Assembly (NCBI GenBank): GCA_000004985.1
Contig: GG738848.1
Origin: Naegleria gruberi
Taxonomy: Eukaryota
Direction: 5' to 3' (one strand)
Length of the DNA: 64,000 bases
Of this stretch, positions 13,672-28,250 are shown one piece after another. The position numbers and the translations under genes were made by a program. The notes beneath the pieces were generated by a model that did not search any database, was not told the origin of the DNA, and saw nothing but the letters and a program-made list of their open reading frames with translations. Numbering within the stretch: the first letter of the stretch is position 1; each line of letters starts with the position of its first letter.

Positions 13672-15783
13672 TCAGGGAGGAACCAGAGTTGTTTGAGAAT
13701 GAACACTTGGAAATATAACATGCCACAAATATTTAAAGTCCAAAAAGAGAGTTTTCCAATTTAGAAGCATATTTTGAAATCGAATATTGTTGAGAAAGAC
13801 ATATGAATCCGTTTCACATGCCTCCAAACTGTGTGATATGAAATATTTCAGTAGAGGTGAAATTACGTATCGTGTGAATAGATTTGAAATATTTTGAGGA
13901 CGAAAGACTGCCTCTGCCAAGTAATCCACAAACCAAACATAGGAATAGGTATAGTGAAAGACAAGTTGAAGATTTCTACTAAACGTAAAGTTGAATGTGT
14001 AGGGAAGTGGATGTACGTGCTTTTGTCGATTCTTCTTCTTTTCCAATCGAGAAGCAACCAATGATTCATGCAATGCTAAACAAGATTCACACACCAGTGC
14101 AATTCCTCTTCCATAGTAAGGATTAAGTGAGGCAACAGCATCACCCAGAGCGAGGAATCCCTCTACAATTGATTTCTTACCTCTCTTATTGGTAAGAGAA
14201 GGCAAAGTATCCCAATGATTGAACAAGACATAATCTCTCCTGTAAATACTCCAATCCATAACTGGTGGTTCTCCCTCTCCCACAAACTTGGTAAAACACT
14301 CCTCACATACTTTGAAAGCACTTGGAATTTCTTGCTTGATGAATTGGAGAACTGCATCTTTGGATTTTAGGTTTTTGGCCTTTTCAAATGTTCCCAATTT
14401 ACTGACAATAAACATGGCAAGATTATTTTCAATTCTATAGACCATTACTCGTTCAGTTTTGGGAAATTCATTACTATAGACCGTTAGCCATTGAGGTTTC
14501 TTTTCTCTCATGTAGAAACCCTCAGAGAGACATTCTGGCTTGATCTTGAATATTGCCATTACGTTTGTGATTTGAGACTTCTTTTTGGTTTTCTTCATTG
14601 GTTTGGCACGGTGATCAATTTCTGCCACCTCATTCAAAATCCACTCTGGTGTCTTGGTATAAACACCACTGCAATCAATGACCAAGCTGGCATCAAGTGT
14701 GCTTGTCTTTCCATCTATTGAAGGATGTCCACCTATGGCATCAAACTTGTTCTCTCCACTAATCTGTACTCCTACAGCTCTGTGAACGATATTTCCCAAA
14801 TATGTGGGTGAATTAGATTGTTGTTGAGAGCTCGAACTCGATGTATCTGAAATGGTATTATGATCTGGAATTTCACTATACGTTGCAGAGAAAATCTTCT
14901 TGGTAATACTGTCATATGAACTAAAGTGTTCCTCATGATATCGTTCCCAGAGAATATCCTTCACCTCTGTCTTTTCCAATACTATAATATTTTTCAAGTT
15001 TTTTACATAATCTCTGAGCCAACTTTCCAAAAAGGTCCTCGACATCATAATCATGTTGGGAAAGTTCAATAAATTAAGTGGTACTCTCGGTTTACCATTT
15101 GTTCTATAATCAGCCATATCAATACTCAATTCAAAGGCACCTTCTTCGACCATACTCTCAGTGAATGATTTTTCATTCTTGGTCAATAACTTGTCTAACA
15201 ATTGGATACATTTCATCAATAGGATATGAGTCTGATGTCCGTGAGCCACCATCGTATGCCCAGGAACCATCTCCTTCTGTTCCACAATATAAACCTGATC
15301 AAAGTGATGTGAGAGAACACACCCAGACAACAACCCAGATATAGAACCACCAATAATTACACAACTTTTACCAGCTTTGGGTATGTGCTTCTTTTCCAAT
15401 TGTTCAATTTCCTTCTCCAATGTCAAATCAGAGTGTTGCTTAATCTCCAAGAATGGAACTATAAACTTTTTAAATAACTTTACAATAATCGCCTTTAAAA
15501 TAAATACTAGAATAAAAATAAATAAATAATACACCAATAAGTCAATACTATTACAAGATATATTTGAGGATTTGCAAAAATCTTCCTTCCAATCCCTCAC
15601 TCGATCCTTATAAATCACAGTTTGATTCATCACCAAATGTGTCCAATTCTTTAAAGTTTCCCAATCATTCCGATGTTGTTGTTGATGATTCGTATGTTTT
15701 ATCTGATGTTGATTATGATGACTATTCATCACTGATGATGATGATGCCTGTGATGATGGATTACTCCTCAAACTTCCCGTCAT
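13672..15783 (-). CDS. Membrane-anchored FAD-dependent monooxygenase/oxidoreductase-like protein
   Basis: 703-aa ORF. His/Gln-rich N-terminus, one TM (LLVYYLFIFILVFILKAIIVKLF), a dinucleotide-binding motif CVIIGGSISGLLSG (GxGxxG) followed by ...VYIVEQ, and a C-terminal LGDAVASLNPYYGRGIAL segment matching the GD-x-ahxxP-xxGxG motif of flavoprotein monooxygenases. Confidence 0.6.
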   Translation of the reverse strand: MTGSLRSNPSSQASSSSVMNSHHNQHQIKHTNHQQQHRNDWETLKNWTHLVMNQTVIYKDRVRDWKEDFCKSSNISCNSIDLLVYYLFIFILVFILKAIIVKLFKKFIVPFLEIKQHSDLTLEKEIEQLEKKHIPKAGKSCVIIGGSISGLLSGCVLSHHFDQVYIVEQKEMVPGHTMVAHGHQTHILLMKCIQLLDKLLTKNEKSFTESMVEEGAFELSIDMADYRTNGKPRVPLNLLNFPNMIMMSRTFLESWLRDYVKNLKNIIVLEKTEVKDILWERYHEEHFSSYDSITKKIFSATYSEIPDHNTISDTSSSSSQQQSNSPTYLGNIVHRAVGVQISGENKFDAIGGHPSIDGKTSTLDASLVIDCSGVYTKTPEWILNEVAEIDHRAKPMKKTKKKSQITNVMAIFKIKPECLSEGFYMREKKPQWLTVYSNEFPKTERVMVYRIENNLAMFIVSKLGTFEKAKNLKSKDAVLQFIKQEIPSAFKVCEECFTKFVGEGEPPVMDWSIYRRDYVLFNHWDTLPSLTNKRGKKSIVEGFLALGDAVASLNPYYGRGIALVCESCLALHESLVASRLEKKKNRQKHVHPLPYTFNFTFSRNLQLVFHYTYSYVWFVDYLAEAVFRPQNISNLFTRYVISPLLKYFISHSLEACETDSYVFLNNIRFQNMLLNWKTLFLDFKYLWHVIFPSVHSQTTLVPP

Positions 15784-16331
15784 TTTTGTATATTATTTAC
15801 AACAACAATATTAAATAATTTAAATAATTTAAATAAATTGATGATCATTATCATAATTCTCAAAATCGAGAGCAGTAAATATTAATTTGCTGTTGATGAT
15901 CAGAAAAAGTCGCGTTAAGGAAAAACTGAGCAAACAAGTGTTGTTATTTTTTTTGATTTGTTTTTGTGGCCCTAAAAAGGAAAATTAGCTGGAATAGATC
16001 AACCCAAATATGGTACTTTCATTTTACTGTAAAAATCTGAGAAAAATATTCTTTAATTTCAAAATTGCATTGCTAAAAGTTGAATAGATGAAACTAAACT
16101 CTGATTCTGATAAAGTGCTAATATTATTAATTTTGGAAATTAGTAAGTTTTGAGATTTTCTTTTTAGAGCTCTTCCACCTGCAAGAATATATATCTGGCA
16201 GTGTGTACCAGGATCCTCTGTGGTTGTAATTTGTTTCTATTGTAATTTGCTCACGTTATAGAGAATCACGTTTCGAAATCCCTTTAAATTTGTCACACTG
16301 GTAAATTAAACTTGCTTATTCGAAACAAAAA

Positions 16332-17675
16332 ATGCTTTCTTTCGCCTTTAGAGTTTTTAAACCTTTAATTTATAGTGTAGTTGGACTTTTTCAACCTTCT
16401 GATCCTGCTGTATCTTCCTCCTATGTGAGATTGGCCAATACTCTATTCGAATTACATTTTAATTATATTGAGAATAAGAAACCAATTTCCAATTTCTTTA
16501 TAACTTGTGAGTTTGATGGTAAAACAGTGAGAAAGCAAGTATTACTAAAAGGTGATGGAAAACGTGATGGTGGTATCTATCATCATGCAGTTGAACTTCA
16601 TCCACAAAAGTTAATGTCCATTAAGGTGGAAACCGAAAGTGGAAGGTTGTTATTCGAAGCTCTAGATATTAATACCAACAGTTTCAAACAAGAAACTCTA
16701 ACATTAATGGAAATGTCTATTCCAGACAGAAAGCAAGAACTATTCGATTCTATTAAGGACAAATTAATTTCCATTTCCAAAAATGTAATCATTGGATCCA
16801 TGTCCATCACATTTAGTGGCAAATCATCCCTCCTCAACAATATCTTCAAAACACTTGGTTCCAAACATGTTCCATTCCCAGTAGGAAGCACAGAACAAGC
16901 AAGAGAAGCTTACAAACTATTTTATGGAAGTTATCCAAGTAATGATTATTTGTCGTCGTTCACCACTGAAATTCTCAAGAAAAATGTGGATGATGTTGAG
17001 GGAATGGAATCTCTTTGGATTTGGGATTTGCCTGGAATTTTCGAATTTACCACTGCCGGTCAAATGCCAACACTTTTGAGTTTGACAGATGACTTATTGA
17101 ACAAGTTATTTGTTACAAAGAATGGAATGATGAAATTGAATGGTAACCAAGAGGATAAAAAAGTCAATCGAGAAGAAGAAGAATTCTCACTGAAACCTCA
17201 AGCTTTAATTGTAACTCTTCCATTGGAGAATAGTTTCGCCTATAATTCCACAAGTGATAATAATATTGCGTTATATTTTGGAAGAATTTCTGGATTTCTA
17301 TCAAAGGAGCATAATGTGAAATCTGTTTATTGTTATACCAAGATAGACGAAACTTATATTTACCAGAATTACATTTCAAAGAATGTGGGAATTACTAGCA
17401 TGTTGGACGAAACTGATCCTACACCAGATCAAATGAAACTCAATTTACTCAAACAATTCCATGAATGGGATATTTTAGAAAGAAAGGATAATAATTTTCC
17501 AGATATGGTTAACAGTGATCATACAATTCCTTTTTTATCAATCAATTCCCCAACTAAGGAAATTGACAACTTTTTCCAAGTTCAATATTTGGAAGTGTTA
17601 AATCTGGCATTGGATAAATGTTTCCAGAAGAAATCATCCCTCTCATGTGAATCCATTTGCATTGTTAAAAAATAA
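16332..17675 (+). CDS. IIGP/IRG-family (immunity-related GTPase)-like protein with a non-canonical P-loop
   Basis: 447-aa ORF. Ordered motifs: NVIIGSMSITFSGKSSLLN (IIGP1 has NVAVTGETGSGKSSFIN), LWIWDLPGI (IIGP1 FWDLPGIG, G3) and YCYTKIDE (IIGP1 VRTKVDSD, G4). The first Gly of GxxxxGKS is displaced by a 2-residue insertion. Confidence 0.45.
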   Translation: MLSFAFRVFKPLIYSVVGLFQPSDPAVSSSYVRLANTLFELHFNYIENKKPISNFFITCEFDGKTVRKQVLLKGDGKRDGGIYHHAVELHPQKLMSIKVETESGRLLFEALDINTNSFKQETLTLMEMSIPDRKQELFDSIKDKLISISKNVIIGSMSITFSGKSSLLNNIFKTLGSKHVPFPVGSTEQAREAYKLFYGSYPSNDYLSSFTTEILKKNVDDVEGMESLWIWDLPGIFEFTTAGQMPTLLSLTDDLLNKLFVTKNGMMKLNGNQEDKKVNREEEEFSLKPQALIVTLPLENSFAYNSTSDNNIALYFGRISGFLSKEHNVKSVYCYTKIDETYIYQNYISKNVGITSMLDETDPTPDQMKLNLLKQFHEWDILERKDNNFPDMVNSDHTIPFLSINSPTKEIDNFFQVQYLEVLNLALDKCFQKKSSLSCESICIVKK

Positions 17676-17803: not shown

Positions 17804-18577
17804 TTATTCCTTTACAGATTTAAGCAATTTTGATGCACTCGCCAAAATTTCAAAATGATACCCATTTCTCGAAATATATGGAGAGTGTACAATGCGTTTC
17901 ATTTGTGCACCAACGAAAATGAAATCTTTTGGAGTCAAACTTTCAAGCGAATCTGGCGATCTTCCTGATATAAAAATGAAACTCTTTACAATAATCTTTC
18001 GTGTAAATCTTGGTGATTTTTCAACGTGATTGAAAATCGTTTCGTCAAGTTTGTCCATGTGGGGAATATTTTCATAGAATAAATTGTCAATTCTTGGGGA
18101 TTTGACAAGAGTTGGAGAATTAGGTGTGAATGAATTGTAATTTTCTTGAAATTTGTTTTCGAGAAGAGAATTGTTTTGATCTGGTTTTTTGGCAAAGTAT
18201 TTGCATGTTACTAATGTTGGCTGGATCAAAAATAGAATGCTTATCATTATCATTTGAAAGATTGACAACAAGATGATTGAGATATACGAAAGTGAAACTG
18301 AAACCAAGACGGCAAGAGATGATTTTTGAGAGAATGTCAATTTCTGGGTAGTACAATAACCCAAGGAAGTTAAAAATCTCAAATTGAACAAGAAAATTGA
18401 ACCAGCATCTTCGTGATGAAGAATTGTCAATAAGAGTTCCCACCAATTTCTATACGATACTCGACTATTGTCTGTAAAAAACAAAAGGAAGGGTAGAAAG
18501 TTTGCCAACAAGTAAATCCATCCATTTCTATCTTCCATAGCAAGCTCTTGGTGCATTCTGATTCTTTCGTAATTCAT
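17804..18577 (-). CDS. Multi-pass membrane protein (hypothetical). Start reassigned to the second Met (ORF as supplied runs to 18667)
   Basis: Five or six hydrophobic helices. The first 30 codons of the supplied ORF overlap three copies of the promoter motif AAACGTGAT and translate to repeated NHVS peptides. The internal Met at 18577 (MNYERIRMHQ...) is more plausible. Confidence 0.4.
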   Translation of the reverse strand: MNYERIRMHQELAMEDRNGWIYLLANFLPFLLFFTDNSRVSYRNWWELLLTILHHEDAGSIFLFNLRFLTSLGYCTTQKLTFSQKSSLAVLVSVSLSYISIILLSIFQMIMISILFLIQPTLVTCKYFAKKPDQNNSLLENKFQENYNSFTPNSPTLVKSPRIDNLFYENIPHMDKLDETIFNHVEKSPRFTRKIIVKSFIFISGRSPDSLESLTPKDFIFVGAQMKRIVHSPYISRNGYHFEILASASKLLKSVKE

Positions 18578-18589
18578 TTTTTTGTTATT

Positions 18590-18685
18590 CGAAACGTGAT
18601 TTTCCTCCTTACCAATCTTAACATTCCTTGAAACGTGATTTTTCAACAATCCTAAACAGACTGTCATCAGAAAACGTGATTAAAC
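18590..18685. promoter_or_regulatory. Three evenly spaced (~40 bp) copies of GAAACGTGATT in the shared upstream region of divergent genes 17804(-) and 18700(+)
   Basis: Copies at about 18591-18601, 18630-18640 and 18671-18681. The same motif occurs as a triplet at 27006-27085 and once at 16264-16275. Confidence 0.5.
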
Positions 18686-18699
18686 TTTAAAAAAAAACG

Positions 18700-19401
18700 A
18701 TGGGTAGATTAGTATATCTTGCAGCTGCAGGATTAGTTGGATATTTGCTTGGAACGAGACAAACTAATACTGACAGCCCAAGTTCACTTTCGAATAACTC
18801 GCCACAATCATTGATTGAGGTTTCTACAACAGACCCAGTTGTGGAATTTCAGCAATTGGCTGTGGTTTCTAATCCCAGTGATATTGAAGAAACATCATCT
18901 ACAGCTTTGGAAGTTATTCTAAACGATTCGTCTCCCAAATCCCTCACATGGTATAATACTGCACTCTATACTACAATTCTATTACTTTCATGTAAACTTG
19001 GAGTTTCGATTTATACCACACTGTTCACAACCTTCAGTATTCCAATGTCTTTGCAAGAACAGATTCGTATTCCAATTCTAATAACTAAAAACTATTCCTC
19101 TGAATGCTACAATCACTCTCTCCTTCTCAATCTACTCAATAGCAAAATGAAAGATTCTCGCTTCACATTTGAATTTTGCTCAGCTCCCGAAAAACCTCAT
19201 TTGAATTGTTGTTTCTATCTGGAAGATAGTAGAGATGTGAAAAGTCCATTCGACAAGTCAATTCTCTACATTGTGAATAGTAAAATAGCACAAGCAGTGA
19301 ATAGACCTCACATGTTCGTGTGTGCTCATTCGACCAATATTTTGGAATTGAAGAATATTCAGAATTTGATGGAATATTTGGAGATTAATTTTGTGGTATA
19401 G
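18700..19401 (+). CDS. Hypothetical protein
   Basis: 233-aa ORF. N-terminal hydrophobic segment (signal/anchor-like). No recognisable motifs. Confidence 0.4.
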   Translation: MGRLVYLAAAGLVGYLLGTRQTNTDSPSSLSNNSPQSLIEVSTTDPVVEFQQLAVVSNPSDIEETSSTALEVILNDSSPKSLTWYNTALYTTILLLSCKLGVSIYTTLFTTFSIPMSLQEQIRIPILITKNYSSECYNHSLLLNLLNSKMKDSRFTFEFCSAPEKPHLNCCFYLEDSRDVKSPFDKSILYIVNSKIAQAVNRPHMFVCAHSTNILELKNIQNLMEYLEINFVV

Positions 19402-25741: not shown

Positions 25742-26947
25742 TTATTTATTGAAAGAAGTATTGTCAAATGCAACTTTTGTGTCTTGAAACAAATCTTGAA
25801 GAAATGAATAATCGACATCATTGTCGACCACCTTTTCCACAACTGGGACTGGATTTGAAACATTGATAAATATCAATTTCTTCAGTTTCTCATAGAATTC
25901 AGAAATAATATCAGCAAGAGGTTGGACAAGAACTTGGAAGACACCTGTCAGAATATTCCAAATAAATTTCCAAGTAAATGAAACTGTGGCTGCACCCACT
26001 TTGGTGGATTCAATTAAATATTTGACAAATGATTGCAAATATCCATTAAAATTATAGTTGAATGAATCCTTTTCCTTAAATAGTGAAATAATTTGAGTAA
26101 TTGTGAAATAGGCCAATCCTGCTACAGCTGTGATAAACAAAGATTTGAGATCTAATTTGATTTTCTTCATGGCCAAAGCAGGAACTAGAACTGAAGTAAT
26201 GGCCAGCAATTTTTCATAGCTGAAAGTTTTTAAAAGGTAAACTTCTGAAACAAGTTCCCAAATCTTTCCTAAAAATTGAGAAATGGTTTCGTCTTGAAAA
26301 TCAAATGGACTTGAAATTGGGACTACCTTATCTCCACTACATAGTAATGCCAATTGTTTGAAATTAATCAAATTCTTTGCCTTTTTGAAAAGAGTTTTCA
26401 TATCTGAACGTTGGTCAACTGTGGCATACGGTTGACAGTTCAGTGTCAAGATAGAAATGTCCTTGTCAGGATACTGTTTCTTCATCTTGTAAGCAACTTC
26501 ACAGGCAACGCTTCCTCCAGCTTTATAGCCAGTTACAATAATGTTGTAATTGGTTGTTTTAACTGAAGGCGCAAACTTTTCATAAATCATATTCGAAACT
26601 TGGCTAATAGTTTCCAAATCCTCCTTCTCTTCATTAAATGACTTGCAAACCAAAACGATCAATTGCTTGCCATCAAATTGAATAAATTGTCCAAGAGAAA
26701 TTCTATTCTCAAAGTTACACGAAACGGTCGAATCTGCAATGAGAGGTTTTACGTCTTGTTGCGAAACAACTTGTGCAAGCCATTTCTTTGTTGGAAAATT
26801 GTCAATGTCAATGACTTGCAATTCTTCGAATGGTTGGCTAGTCACGACAGGAATGAGAGATTCTAATGAATGGACCGATTCTAATGGTGTTAGTGATTCT
26901 ACTGATTCGACTGAGGATGTGAACCATCCTGTTAACCAACTTGACAT
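25742..26947 (-). CDS. Lipase class 3 (alpha/beta-hydrolase) domain paralog with a non-canonical nucleophile elbow
   Basis: 401-aa ORF. ...TTNYNIIVTGYKAGGSVACEVAYKM aligns to the lipase_3 core VVVTGHSLGGALA, with GYKAG in place of GHSLG (Lys at the Ser position; a GGSVA follows). C-terminal amphipathic/hydrophobic region. Confidence 0.55.
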   Translation of the reverse strand: MSSWLTGWFTSSVESVESLTPLESVHSLESLIPVVTSQPFEELQVIDIDNFPTKKWLAQVVSQQDVKPLIADSTVSCNFENRISLGQFIQFDGKQLIVLVCKSFNEEKEDLETISQVSNMIYEKFAPSVKTTNYNIIVTGYKAGGSVACEVAYKMKKQYPDKDISILTLNCQPYATVDQRSDMKTLFKKAKNLINFKQLALLCSGDKVVPISSPFDFQDETISQFLGKIWELVSEVYLLKTFSYEKLLAITSVLVPALAMKKIKLDLKSLFITAVAGLAYFTITQIISLFKEKDSFNYNFNGYLQSFVKYLIESTKVGAATVSFTWKFIWNILTGVFQVLVQPLADIISEFYEKLKKLIFINVSNPVPVVEKVVDNDVDYSFLQDLFQDTKVAFDNTSFNK

Positions 26948-27119: not shown

Positions 27120-28250
27120 ATGACACTCACCAACATTGATATTGAAAATAAAGAGATTTTAAAGTGGCTATGCAAAAGAACAAACTCAATCTATAGCTCA
27201 ACTTTGTTGCCAGAATTGTCAGAACTTCCGTTGAAATCTGGCAGCTTGATATTTCATGATAACAATAATTCAGTATTGGCAGTAGCAGATATATATGATT
27301 CAATAGGATCAGTAGTGGTTACTTGTAAAGGAAGTCAATCAATCTATGACTGGGTGTCAAATTTCACTGAATTTCCAACAACTTCTAATCAAAATTCTAT
27401 TCCTGATTTCATTTACGAGAATGCATTGAAAATTTCACAGAAATTTGATAGAGAATCGCCAAATATTTTCAATAATAAGAAGGTGATTTGTTGTGGGCAT
27501 AGTAGAGGTGCAGGAATTGCTTCTTATTTGGGCTATCATATTGCTTCAAATTCCAAGAACTGTCAAGTGTCTGTTTTGACATTTAGCTCAATTCCATATG
27601 CCAATGATCAATTTAAAACTGCTTTCGACAATGTAATTTACAAAGCTAAGAATATCATTTCAATTCTAGATCCACTTCAAACTTTATGGGTTTCTAGAAA
27701 TATCCCAGGAGAAACTAGAATATTGGAATTCACCTATCCAGGTGCATCAGCAATTGCACTCTTTACCATTCCACTAACAGCATTCGTTAAGGAGATTCAT
27801 TGTCTGTTTGACAAAATTTTCCATTTGCAAGGAATTTCTGAAATATTGGAATGTGCAACATCTTTTGCCTTATTTAAAGGTACAAGTCAATTCTTGTCCT
27901 TTTCTGGACTGGTGACCATGTTTCTTATGGATGTTGGAGTTAATGTATTCCAAGGAAAGTGTCACAAGATGGATTATACACAGCATGTAGTTGGAGGTGG
28001 CGTTGAACCTCTTATTAAGGCAGTTTTTGAGTTGCTGTCTGATGTCAACAACAAGACAACCAACCTGGTGAATTTGATAACTAAGTTTGTGATGGGACCA
28101 TTATTTGGATTGTTGAAGAAACTTTTCGTGAATGTTGTTGATCTGATCGATCAATTATGGAACGCCCTAAAGGAATTTGTGGGACAAGCTGTTAATTTCT
28201 TTAAATCTAGTTTATCTTTGATTTCCTATCATCCAATAGTGCAAAATTAA
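27120..28250 (+). CDS. Lipase class 3 (alpha/beta-hydrolase) domain protein with canonical nucleophile
   Basis: 376-aa ORF. KKVICCGHSRGAGIASYLG matches the GHSxG lipase_3 elbow. C-terminal hydrophobic/amphipathic segment as in the divergent paralog. Confidence 0.6.
   Translation: MTLTNIDIENKEILKWLCKRTNSIYSSTLLPELSELPLKSGSLIFHDNNNSVLAVADIYDSIGSVVVTCKGSQSIYDWVSNFTEFPTTSNQNSIPDFIYENALKISQKFDRESPNIFNNKKVICCGHSRGAGIASYLGYHIASNSKNCQVSVLTFSSIPYANDQFKTAFDNVIYKAKNIISILDPLQTLWVSRNIPGETRILEFTYPGASAIALFTIPLTAFVKEIHCLFDKIFHLQGISEILECATSFALFKGTSQFLSFSGLVTMFLMDVGVNVFQGKCHKMDYTQHVVGGGVEPLIKAVFELLSDVNNKTTNLVNLITKFVMGPLFGLLKKLFVNVVDLIDQLWNALKEFVGQAVNFFKSSLSLISYHPIVQN

What the first reader, a model, noticed from the sequence alone, without database searches (positions are those of the whole stretch)
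16332..17675. IIGP/IRG-like GTPase with a displaced P-loop glycine
Three IRG-diagnostic motifs occur in order: xxSGKSSLLN, WIWDLPGI and CYTKIDE. The first P-loop Gly is missing because of a 2-residue insertion (GSMSITFSGKSS). Immunity-related GTPase homologues in unicellular eukaryotes are sparsely documented. In IRGM-type proteins, altered P-loops correlate with regulatory rather than catalytic roles. This gene also carries the ACGTGAT promoter motif.
Basis: partly seen in the sequence, partly recalled or inferred. Interest (0 to 1): 0.5.

Follow-up and report, generated by a model that had tools for sequence, protein, structure and literature searches.

The report
Naegleria-only divergent GTPase-like gene
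This is a real Naegleria gruberi gene for a fast-diverged GTP-binding-type protein with an unusual serine in its nucleotide-binding loop, and it resembles mammalian immunity-related GTPases only about as distantly as septins do, so it is a lineage-specific GTPase relative rather than a protist IRG.

Summary
The ORF 16332-17675 (+) is real. It is identical to NAEGRDRAFT_62815, annotated 'predicted protein' in Naegleria gruberi. All three quoted motifs are present.

The P-loop lacks its first glycine, but not through an insertion. Ser158 occupies that position (SxxxxGKS), and both full-length paralogues have the same serine.

The protein belongs to a small family detected only in N. gruberi-like genomes: three paralogues and one scrambled pseudogene. 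No relative was found in 1.84 billion representative proteins, IMG/VR, GTDB genomes or JGI metagenomes.

Pfam IIGP does not hit any member. Only MMR_HSR1 matches, below threshold.

Profile comparisons put IRGs first among known GTPases (hhalign 90-93%, Irga6 top in the PDB). However, an IRG profile scores human septin-2 equally well, so this is inter-family distance. The match covers only a pre-P-loop helix, G1 and G3. The IRG C-terminal helical domain is absent, and the N-terminus is a different, probably beta-rich, domain.

AlphaFold failed twice (pLDDT 35), so the fold is untested.

The promoter element, extended to AAACGTGAT, is strongly enriched in the window. It also occurs twice upstream of a paralogue.

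Verdict: a new lineage-specific variant of septin/IRG/Era-like GTPases, of modest interest.

The parts
16332..17675 (+). Complete single-exon CDS (447 aa plus stop) of NAEGRDRAFT_62815
   Evidence: ORF list. 100% identity and full coverage to the NCBI protein. Codon usage is typical of the window: r=0.92 against other ORFs, GC3 0.295.
16265..16273 (-). AAACGTGAT promoter-proximal element, 59-67 bp upstream of the ATG
   Evidence: the 9-mer occurs 8 times against 0.46 expected. The same 9-mer occurs twice in the 424 bp upstream of the paralogue allele on L001.
16332..16400 (+). N-terminal hydrophobic segment MLSFAFRVFKPLIYSVVGLFQPS (aa 1-23). Putative membrane anchor or targeting peptide. It takes the place of the MGxxxS start of the paralogues.
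   Evidence: Highest Kyte-Doolittle 19-residue window of the protein (1.48, aa 2-20). The paralogues start MGNQYS and MGNKQS. Its function is inferred.
16419..16667 (+). Family-specific N-terminal domain (aa 30-112), probably beta-rich
   Evidence: Conserved among the paralogues. Both AlphaFold models place strands here, and it is the only part with pLDDT around 55-64. Foldseek gives only generic FN3/Ig-like sandwich matches at E>3e-3. There is no Pfam or PDB sequence match.
16674..16781 (+). Helical segment just before strand beta1 (aa 115-150). This is the only extra-G-domain stretch that aligns with IRGs (Irga6 aa ~31-67).
   Evidence: hhalign and HMMER alignments. Upstream-only hhalign gives P=0.01. 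Helices are predicted at aa 119-149.
16803..16826 (+). G1 / Walker A variant S158-ITFS-G163-K164-S165, with Ser in place of the first Gly
   Evidence: Ser is conserved in P0002 and P0005. K164, S165, L168 and N169 are invariant.
16956..16967 (+). Candidate G2 / switch I threonine (SFTT; family pattern S[FY]T)
   Evidence: Conserved column in the family alignment. The assignment is inferred from position only.
17025..17036 (+). G3 / switch II DLPG after the hydrophobic strand LWIW
   Evidence: It aligns in register with IRG WDLPG. D232 and P234 are invariant in the family.
17112..17186 (+). Target-specific low-complexity insertion (aa 261-285, VTKNGMMKLNGNQEDKKVNREEEEF), absent from the paralogues
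   Evidence: Family alignment. It misleads HMM alignments into placing the next strand at the G4 position.
17202..17222 (+). Strand ALIVTLP (family A[ILV]FVPIP), interpreted as beta4
   Evidence: Family alignment. In P0005 only 27 residues, enough for one helix, separate G3 from this strand. It therefore cannot be beta5/G4 (inference).
17337..17348 (+). G4 guanine-specificity motif TKID at the end of strand SVYCY (paralogues SKID, SQID)
   Evidence: TKID and SKID variants also occur in bona fide IRGs. The strand is predicted at aa 331-338 in the single-sequence model (low confidence).
17451..17480 (+). Most conserved block of the family (K-x-F-x-E-W-D-I-L-E), putative helix alpha4
   Evidence: K374, F376, E378, W379 and E383 are invariant in all four copies.
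17526..17546 (+). Candidate beta6 / G5 (IPFLSIN), followed by the last helix. The protein ends 42 aa later.
   Evidence: P400 and F401 are invariant. The assignment rests on position and pattern only. No comparator aligns significantly here.

Best explanation
The locus is a native, intact, single-exon Naegleria gruberi gene (NAEGRDRAFT_62815). It encodes a lineage-restricted, highly diverged P-loop GTPase-type protein. With two full-length paralogues (NAEGRDRAFT_58069, NAEGRDRAFT_58985) and one decayed copy, it forms its own small family.

Proposed architecture:
- an N-terminal membrane-targeting feature: a hydrophobic segment in the target, MGxxxS myristoylation motifs in the paralogues;
- a family-specific, probably beta-rich domain (aa ~30-112);
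- a helical linker (aa ~115-150);
- a Ras-like G domain (aa ~150-447) with G1 = SxxxxGKS, G3 = DLPG and G4 = TKID, with no C-terminal helical domain.

Proposed mechanism (inferred). K164/S165, D232/G235 and T336-K337-x-D339 bind Mg-GTP as in other TRAFAC GTPases. The conserved Ser158 is a family-specific P-loop adaptation that probably tunes affinity or hydrolysis rather than abolishing binding. The protein would act as a nucleotide-dependent switch or assembly factor at a membrane, with the N-terminal domain providing target recognition. Transcription is probably driven by AAACGTGAT elements shared with at least one paralogue.

Its nearest known relatives are the IRG and septin/Era-like GTPases, at between-family distance. 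It is not a member of the IRG family.
For: Shown:
- The ORF and its identity to the annotated protein.
- Native codon usage.
- The family is limited to N. gruberi-like sequences in a full HMMER scan of 1.84 billion representatives. Nothing was found in JGI metagenomes, IMG/VR or GTDB genomes.
- The motif order is non-random (280 of 200,000 shuffles) and conserved in paralogues, including the Ser at the first Walker A position.
- MMR_HSR1 is the only Pfam model that touches all members.
- Irga6 is the top PDB hit for the family profile.
- hhalign against IRG gives 90-93% with clean negative controls.
- IRG sequences outscore septin, Era, Der, GIMAP, GBP, dynamin and Ras sequences.
- Calibration: IRG against septin-2 scores the same as IRG against the target.
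- MGxxxS starts in the paralogues. The N-terminal hydrophobic maximum in the target.
- AAACGTGAT is enriched 8 against 0.46 expected and is shared with the paralogue promoter.

Inferred: GTP binding, membrane association, the role of Ser158, the role of the N-terminal domain, and the secondary-structure assignment of beta4 / alpha3 / beta5-G4.
Against: - No structure: both AlphaFold runs gave pLDDT about 35, so the G-domain fold is not demonstrated.
- The C-terminal half (aa 286-447) has no significant similarity to any GTPase.
- HMM alignments place the conserved A-x-FVPIP strand, not TKID, at the G4 position. I rejected that register on topological grounds only.
- Ser in place of the first P-loop Gly violates the classical [AG]xxxxGK[ST] pattern (my knowledge of PROSITE PS00017) and could impair catalysis.
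- Paralogue 58985 has degenerate G3/G4 (DCPA, SQID), which shows that the family tolerates loss of the motifs.
- No expression or functional data were found.
Confidence: 0.55

Rival explanations
1. It is a true, very divergent member of the IRG (p47 immunity-related GTPase) family, that is, a protist homologue of the animal cell-autonomous immunity GTPases.
For: IRGs are the top-scoring known family. The alignment extends about 40 residues upstream of the P-loop into a helix that is IRG-specific (upstream-only P=0.01). WDLPGI and TKID are identical to IRG signatures: WDLPG in 124 of 126 IRG domains, and TKID/SKID variants are present. The paralogues carry the MGxxxS start that 11 mouse IRGs have (PMC1297648).
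Against: PF05049 is not hit by any member or by the family consensus. My own IRG HMM gives 13.3 bits for the target, but P0005 (3.6 bits) is within the shuffle range and P0002 is not among the top matches. The IRG profile scores septin-2 as high as the target. The C-terminal helical domain is absent and the N-terminal region is a different domain. W and L of WDLPG are not conserved in the family. Bekpen et al. warn that G-domain similarity alone did not establish an IRG relationship for C. elegans or cyanobacterial sequences (PMC1297648).
Confidence: 0.1
2. It is a pseudo-GTPase. The G-domain scaffold is retained, but the Ser-substituted P-loop makes it a non-hydrolysing, or even non-binding, regulatory or scaffold protein.
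For: The first Walker A Gly is replaced in every member. Paralogue 58985 has also lost G3 Gly (DCPA) and G4 Lys (SQID). The family evolves fast (20-33% identity between paralogues) and has a decayed copy.
Against: In the target and in P0002 the residues that contact nucleotide (GKS, DxPG, [TS]KID) are all intact and conserved across 33% overall identity. That argues for selection on nucleotide binding. Ser is a small residue that the P-loop may tolerate (inference).
Confidence: 0.2
3. It is not a GTPase at all but another kind of P-loop NTPase (for example KAP- or ABC-like ATPase), and the DxxG and TKxD matches are coincidental.
For: For paralogue 58985 the best weak Pfam hits are KAP_NTPase and ABC_tran (E 0.03-0.05), ahead of MMR_HSR1. 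The second half of the domain matches no GTPase.
Against: Those hits cover only the P-loop region. The ordered G1-G3-G4 pattern is rare by chance (0.14% of shuffles) and conserved in P0002. G3 follows a hydrophobic strand at GTPase-typical spacing and aligns in register with IRG G3. The PDB hits of the family profile are GTPases, apart from one short 56-residue chain (PSD-1).
Confidence: 0.07
4. The ORF is a chance or decayed reading frame, not a functional gene.
For: It is annotated only as 'predicted protein'. No literature or expression evidence was found.
Against: A 447-codon open frame in 33% GC DNA. Codon usage matches the neighbours. Conserved paralogues keep the frame and motifs. A conserved promoter element is shared with a paralogue.
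Confidence: 0.02

Closest known systems
IRG / p47 immunity-related GTPases (Irga6/IIGP1; Pfam PF05049)
   Same: Best-scoring known family in profile comparisons. Shares the GKS[ST]-h-h-N P-loop helix, WDLPGI (target only), the TKID/SKID type of G4, a helix immediately before beta1, and MGxxxS starts in the paralogues. Both are multi-copy, fast-diverging, lineage-restricted families.
   Different: No PF05049 hit. Ser replaces the first P-loop Gly, whereas 118 of the 119 sampled IRG domains that matched the P-loop pattern have Gly. There is no C-terminal helical domain. The N-terminus is a different, probably beta-rich, domain of about 110 aa. The similarity is no stronger than IRG against septin-2. 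No interferon system exists in Naegleria (general knowledge).
Septins (for example human SEPT2/SEPT3)
   Same: Second-best family: SEPT2 hhalign score 34.0, P 7e-4, and septin-3 among the PDB hits. The P-loop signature G/S-E-[ST]-G-x-GKST-L-[IL]-N is very close to paralogue 58985 (SETGSGKSTLLN).
   Different: Septins have DTPG and AKAD motifs, a septin-unique element and coiled coils (general knowledge). Pfam Septin is not hit.
Era/EngA/MnmE-type GTPases (Pfam MMR_HSR1, PF01926)
   Same: The only Pfam family reported for the target, P0002 and the family consensus (14.9-16.7 bits, covering G1 to G3). mt-EngA is among the PDB hits.
   Different: Below the gathering score of 21.9. Era and Der single sequences score lower than IRGs. 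There are no KH or other RNA-binding domains. The proline-type G3 (DLPG/DMPG) and [TS]KID differ from DTPG and NKxD.
Dynamin superfamily (dynamin-1, Mx, GBP1)
   Same: DLPG and TKxD motifs are also typical of dynamins (general knowledge). Both have a helix before the P-loop.
   Different: Dynamin-1 and GBP1 G domains match the P-loop region only, at non-significant scores (18.4 and 20.5). No dynamin, Mx, GBP, mitofusin or BDLP chain reached E<=10 in the PDB profile searches.

Membership tests
IRG (p47 immunity-related GTPases, Pfam IIGP PF05049) | Significant match to the family profile PF05049 | tested here: not met
   No IIGP hit at E<=10 for the target, P0002, P0005/P0004 or the family consensus. 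An IRG HMM built here gives the target 13.3 bits, but P0005 (3.6 bits) falls within the shuffle range and P0002 is not among the top matches.
IRG (p47 immunity-related GTPases, Pfam IIGP PF05049) | Ras-like G domain flanked by N-terminal and C-terminal helical domains not found in other GTPases (PMC1297648) | tested here: not met
   The protein ends about 42 aa after the putative G5, against about 180 aa in Irga6. The N-terminal 110 aa are predicted beta-rich. Only one pre-P-loop helix aligns, weakly (P=0.01). This is based on sequence and alignment, because no confident structure was obtained.
IRG (p47 immunity-related GTPases, Pfam IIGP PF05049) | G1 GxxxxGKS (or GMS), G3 WDLPG, G4 TKxD | tested here: inconclusive
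   G3 WDLPG and G4 TKID are met in the target. The first Gly of G1 is replaced by Ser in all members, whereas 118 of 119 sampled IRGs have Gly. The W and L of G3 are not conserved in the paralogues.
IRG (p47 immunity-related GTPases, Pfam IIGP PF05049) | Closer to IRGs than other GTPase families are to IRGs | tested here: not met
   The IRG profile scores septin-2 at 52.3 (P 1.3e-6). It scores the target at 55.9 (P 7e-7), P0005 at 40.3 and P0002 at 23.1.
IRG (p47 immunity-related GTPases, Pfam IIGP PF05049) | Inducible role in cell-autonomous defence at pathogen-containing membranes | not testable with these tools
   No expression or functional data were found.
TRAFAC-class P-loop GTPases (general) | Walker A GxxxxGK[ST] | tested here: inconclusive
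   The G-K-S core is intact and invariant. The first Gly is replaced by a conserved Ser.
TRAFAC-class P-loop GTPases (general) | G3 DxxG after a hydrophobic strand, and G4 [NT]KxD after a hydrophobic strand | tested here: met
   LWIW-DLPG at aa 232-235 and VYCY-TKID at aa 336-339. They are conserved as DMPG/SKID in P0002. The ordered pattern is rare in shuffles.
TRAFAC-class P-loop GTPases (general) | Ras-like alpha/beta fold with beta2 antiparallel and a switch I Thr | not testable with these tools
   AlphaFold pLDDT was 35 in both runs. The fold search returned only generic beta-sandwich matches for the N-terminus. A candidate G2 Thr (S[FY]T) was assigned by position only.
MMR_HSR1 (PF01926) | Score above the Pfam gathering threshold (21.9 bits) | tested here: not met
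   14.9, 15.0, 12.5 and 16.7 (consensus) bits.
Dynamin superfamily | Similarity of the G domain beyond the P-loop to Dynamin_N / dynamin G domains | tested here: not met
   Dynamin-1 G domain hhalign score 18.4, P 0.14, P-loop only. No dynamin-type chain in the PDB profile hits. No Dynamin_N Pfam hit.

The most novel reading that the evidence does not exclude
The Naegleria family is a genuine deep relative of the animal IRGs. On this reading it is a membrane-targeted (myristoylated or anchored), multi-copy, fast-evolving GTPase system used by a free-living amoeba for cell-autonomous defence against intracellular bacteria or giant viruses. It would be co-regulated through the AAACGTGAT element with lipases. 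This would put IRG-type immunity before the origin of animals, or show it arose convergently, with a Ser-type P-loop as a new catalytic variant.
Probability: 0.07. Interest if true: 0.75.

Novelty: new variant of a known kind. Interest (0 to 1): 0.3.

Why it matters
If the assignment holds, Naegleria carries a private family of septin/IRG-like GTPases. The family combines a conserved Ser-for-Gly P-loop, a novel N-terminal domain and lipid- or hydrophobic-type N-terminal targeting. That adds a data point on how far the Walker A motif can drift in GTPases whose other nucleotide-contacting motifs remain conserved. It also gives a handle, the shared AAACGTGAT element, on an uncharacterised Naegleria regulon. 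It does not, on present evidence, extend the IRG immune system to protists. The gene is already annotated, as 'predicted protein', so the gain is classification rather than discovery.

Tried and rejected
1. Pfam, NCBIfam, PADLOC and PHROGs scans found no family assignment.

2. AlphaFold2 was run on the single sequence and on the 5-row family alignment. Both gave pLDDT about 35. Foldseek on the second model returned only generic FN3/Ig-like matches for the N-terminus at E>3e-3 and is not usable.

3. Homologue searches found only N. gruberi-like paralogues:
   - a word-indexed search of 5.8 billion proteins with the sequence and with the family alignment;
   - full HMMER against 1.84 billion representatives;
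   - pattern scans of JGI metagenomes, IMG/VR and GTDB genomes.

4. I tried to build a diverse Era profile as a profile-level control. The genome scan returned only sequences at least 94% identical, which are useless as a profile. Controls were therefore single sequences, recalled from memory and verified against the PDB.

5. An alternative register was proposed by the Pfam MMR_HSR1 alignment and by hhalign: A-x-FVPIP at G4 and CYTKID at G5. I rejected it for two reasons. Paralogue 58985 has only about 27 residues, one helix, between G3 and that strand, so beta4 and alpha3 would be missing. The conserved [ST][KQ]ID at the end of a strand also fits G4. This remains an inference.

6. The N-terminal domain profile against the PDB gave only chance-level PBP1b hits.

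7. DNA of paralogues 58069 and 58985 was not on record.

8. The literature holds no mention of the three locus tags, of IRGs in Naegleria, or of the motif. No supplementary expression tables were held.

9. Recent horizontal or viral origin was considered and not supported. Codon usage is native and there are no viral or prokaryotic relatives.
Full report
**What is at the coordinates.** The window is AT-rich (about 30-39% GC). An uninterrupted ATG-to-TAA frame of 447 codons runs from 16332 to 17675 on the + strand. Its translation is 100% identical over the full length to a GenBank protein of Naegleria gruberi, 'predicted protein' NAEGRDRAFT_62815 (EFC49274.1 / XP_002682018.1 / D2V1A5). That protein sits on a 712,659-bp contig. 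Codon usage and GC3 match the other long ORFs of the window (r = 0.92, GC3 0.295). It is therefore a native gene and shows no compositional sign of recent transfer.

**The observation.** Minimal versions in this order and spacing (GK[ST], then DxxG, then [NT]KxD) occur in 280 of 200,000 shuffles of the protein. They recur in a paralogue that is only 33% identical. The pattern is therefore not chance.

The P-loop detail is wrong in one respect. Counting back from G163-K164-S165, the position of the canonical first glycine is Ser158 (S-ITFS-GKS). Gly155 is three residues further upstream and is not a conserved column. The two full-length paralogues also have Ser at exactly that position (S-IASG-GKS and S-ETGS-GKS). 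This is a family-wide Gly-to-Ser substitution, not an insertion.

**The family.**
- A full HMMER scan of 1.84 billion representative proteins found four proteins at E<=1e-3: the query itself, P0002, P0004 and the 55-aa fragment P0003.
- P0002 is NAEGRDRAFT_58069 (432 aa, 33% identity).
- P0004 is a 97.6%-identical allele of NAEGRDRAFT_58985 (P0005, 467 aa, about 20% identity) from an ENA metagenome.
- P0003 lies on the contig L002. That contig carries a decayed fourth copy with frameshifts, an internal deletion and an inverted piece.
- Word-indexed searches of 5.8 billion proteins found nothing further. Pattern scans of JGI metagenomes, IMG/VR and GTDB genomes also found nothing.
- The family is, as far as these tools can see, restricted to N. 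gruberi-like genomes.
- Motifs across the members: G3 is DLPG / DMPG / DCPA and G4 is TKID / SKID / SQID. Paralogue 58985 is partly degenerate.
- Both paralogues start MGN..S, the MGxxxS N-myristoylation pattern. The target instead starts with a 20-residue hydrophobic segment, the most hydrophobic window of the protein (KD 1.48).

Pfam IIGP (PF05049) gives no hit at E<=10 for the target, either paralogue or the family consensus. The only GTPase model reported for every member is MMR_HSR1, at 12.5-16.7 bits against a threshold of 21.9. NCBIfam, PADLOC and PHROGs give nothing.

Profile methods nevertheless point to IRGs as the nearest known family.
- A profile of the Naegleria family searched against all PDB sequences puts six Irga6 entries first (E 0.004-0.1). 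Septin-3 and mitochondrial EngA follow (E 0.5-0.9), and the LRRK2 Roc domain appears in one of the two searches at E 1.3. No dynamin, GBP or mitofusin appears.
- hhalign against a 10-sequence vertebrate IRG profile gives 90.6-93.3% probability and P 3e-7 to 1e-6. The profile was built from the real sequences returned.
- Reversed or column-shuffled controls score at most 22, against 55.9 for the real comparison.
- In pieces, the collinear match consists of a helix before the P-loop (P 0.01), the P-loop (P 7e-5) and G3 (P 9e-4).

I also compared the family profile with single sequences. The comparators were recalled from memory and verified as essentially exact against the PDB.

| Sequence | hhalign score |
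|---|---|
| 9 of 10 IRG representatives | 33-49 |
| Septin-2 | 34 |
| Era | 28.8 |
| Der | 28.2 |
| GIMAP2 | 24.3 |
| GBP1 | 20.5 |
| Dynamin-1 | 18.4 |
| H-Ras | 17.7 |

**Calibration.** The same IRG profile scores human septin-2 at 52.3 (P 1.3e-6). That is as high as it scores the target (55.9, P 7e-7) and higher than it scores the paralogues (40.3 and 23.1). My IRG HMM gives the target 13.3 bits, against at most 6.3 for 300 shuffles, but P0005 (3.6 bits) falls within the shuffle range and P0002 is not among the top matches. The similarity is real, but it is at the distance that separates different families of the septin/IRG/Era-like assemblage. It is not within-family distance.

The aligned part stops after G3. 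The C-terminal half (aa 286-447) has no significant similarity to any comparator or to the IRG profile. IRGs are defined by a Ras-like G domain flanked by N- and C-terminal helical domains (PMC1297648). Here the chain ends about 42 residues after the putative G5. The first 110 residues form a different, conserved and apparently beta-rich domain.

Bekpen et al. also caution that G-domain similarity alone did not establish an IRG relationship for C. elegans and cyanobacterial sequences. The IRGM analogy is loose as well. The IRGM ('GMS') change is Lys-to-Met, not a change of the first glycine. In the 119 of 126 sampled IRG G domains that matched the P-loop pattern, the first glycine is present in 118.

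**Anatomy of the G domain.** The Pfam MMR_HSR1 alignment and the low-confidence extension of hhalign place the conserved strand A-x-FVPIP at the G4 position and CYTKID at G5. I reject that register. The target has a private 25-residue low-complexity insertion (aa 261-285) that creates the spacing. In paralogue 58985 only about 27 residues, one helix, lie between G3 and that strand, which leaves no room for alpha2, beta4 and alpha3.

My reading is: A-x-FVPIP is beta4, the following helix is alpha3, and the strand ending in [ST][KQ]ID is beta5/G4. After that come the invariant K-x-F-x-E-W block (alpha4), IPF-x-S (beta6/G5) and a terminal helix. This gives a complete canonical G-domain order. The strand/helix pattern of the single-sequence model (E291-296, H311-326, E331-338) agrees, but at very low confidence. 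This step is inference.

**Structure.** AlphaFold2 failed with the single sequence and with the 5-row family alignment (mean pLDDT 35.2 and 35.4). The fold is therefore untested, and the Foldseek run is uninformative for the G domain.

**Likely mechanism (inferred).** I propose a membrane-targeted GTPase-type switch or assembly protein. Mg-GTP would bind through K164/S165, D232/G235 and T336-K337-x-D339. These residues are conserved with P0002 despite 33% overall identity, which argues for selection on nucleotide binding. The conserved Ser158 is a family-specific P-loop variant that may tune affinity or hydrolysis. The N-terminal domain would provide target recognition. The rivals (pseudo-GTPase, true IRG, other NTPase, non-gene) are weighed in the rivals section.

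**Promoter element.** ACGTGAT occurs 11 times against 4.0 expected. The extended form AAACGTGAT occurs 8 times against 0.46 expected. Seven of the eight copies are promoter-proximal:
- one copy 59-67 bp upstream of this gene;
- three direct copies about 40 bp apart upstream of the ORF starting at 18700;
- three copies between the divergent ORFs 25742-26947 (-) and 27120-28250 (+). The latter is a class-3 lipase and the former a weak match to the same family.

The eighth copy is inside the target CDS. The same 9-mer occurs twice in the 424 bp upstream of the paralogue allele on L001, where the 8-mer expectation for the whole 4.3-kb locus is 0.14. This suggests co-regulation of family members. 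No literature on the motif was found.

**Verdict.** The IRG interpretation is partly supported: IRGs are the nearest known family, but the protein is not a member. It is a lineage-specific, divergent variant of septin/IRG/Era-like GTPases with a Ser-type P-loop and a novel N-terminal domain. It is already annotated as an uncharacterised protein. Interest is modest.

Noticed in passing
It clusters in promoter-like intergenic DNA. There are three direct copies about 40 bp apart before the ORF at 18700, and three copies between a divergent ORF pair of which one is a class-3 lipase and the other a weak lipase-like match. Two copies lie upstream of a paralogue of the GTPase-like gene on a separate contig. 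It is probably an uncharacterised Naegleria cis-regulatory element with an ACGT core.
   Followed up: partly
window 25742-26947 (-) and 27120-28250 (+): A head-to-head pair of ORFs. The + strand ORF is a class-3 lipase (Pfam Lipase_3, E 2e-12). The - strand ORF matches the same model only weakly (E 0.006, 17.0 bits, below the 22-bit threshold). They share a 170-bp intergenic region that holds three AAACGTGAT copies.
   Followed up: partly
L002 1686-2347 (ENA metagenome ERZ929261 contig k127_500839); also L003: A decayed fourth copy of the family. The C-terminal piece is on the + strand and the middle pieces are on the - strand in two frames with stop codons. A deletion joins the 'RLAN' motif of the N-terminal domain directly to 'KSTILN'. 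This is either a pseudogene or a scrambled assembly.
   Followed up: partly
L001 1640-1660: The metagenome allele (P0004) of paralogue NAEGRDRAFT_58985 differs from the reference by a 2-nt frame difference after '...FFTHF'. Its called product therefore ends early (411 against 467 aa), while the remaining 61 residues are encoded 100% identically in another frame. This is a strain frameshift or an assembly error.
   Followed up: partly
window 17112-17186 (aa 261-285 of the target): A target-specific Asn/Lys/Glu-rich insertion between G3 and the next strand. It makes Pfam and hhalign alignments mis-register the second half of the G domain.
   Followed up: yes
window 13672-15783 (-): The upstream neighbour is a 703-aa ORF with a Ser/His/Gln-rich N-terminus and a weak, sub-threshold match to Trp_halogenase (E 0.002). 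It may be an FAD-dependent oxidoreductase-type protein.
   Followed up: no
window 17804-18667 (-) and 18700-19401 (+): The two downstream neighbours are ORFs without any Pfam match. Two of the three AAACGTGAT copies before the 18700 gene lie inside the annotatable 5' end of the minus-strand ORF, so that ORF's true start may be further downstream.
   Followed up: no
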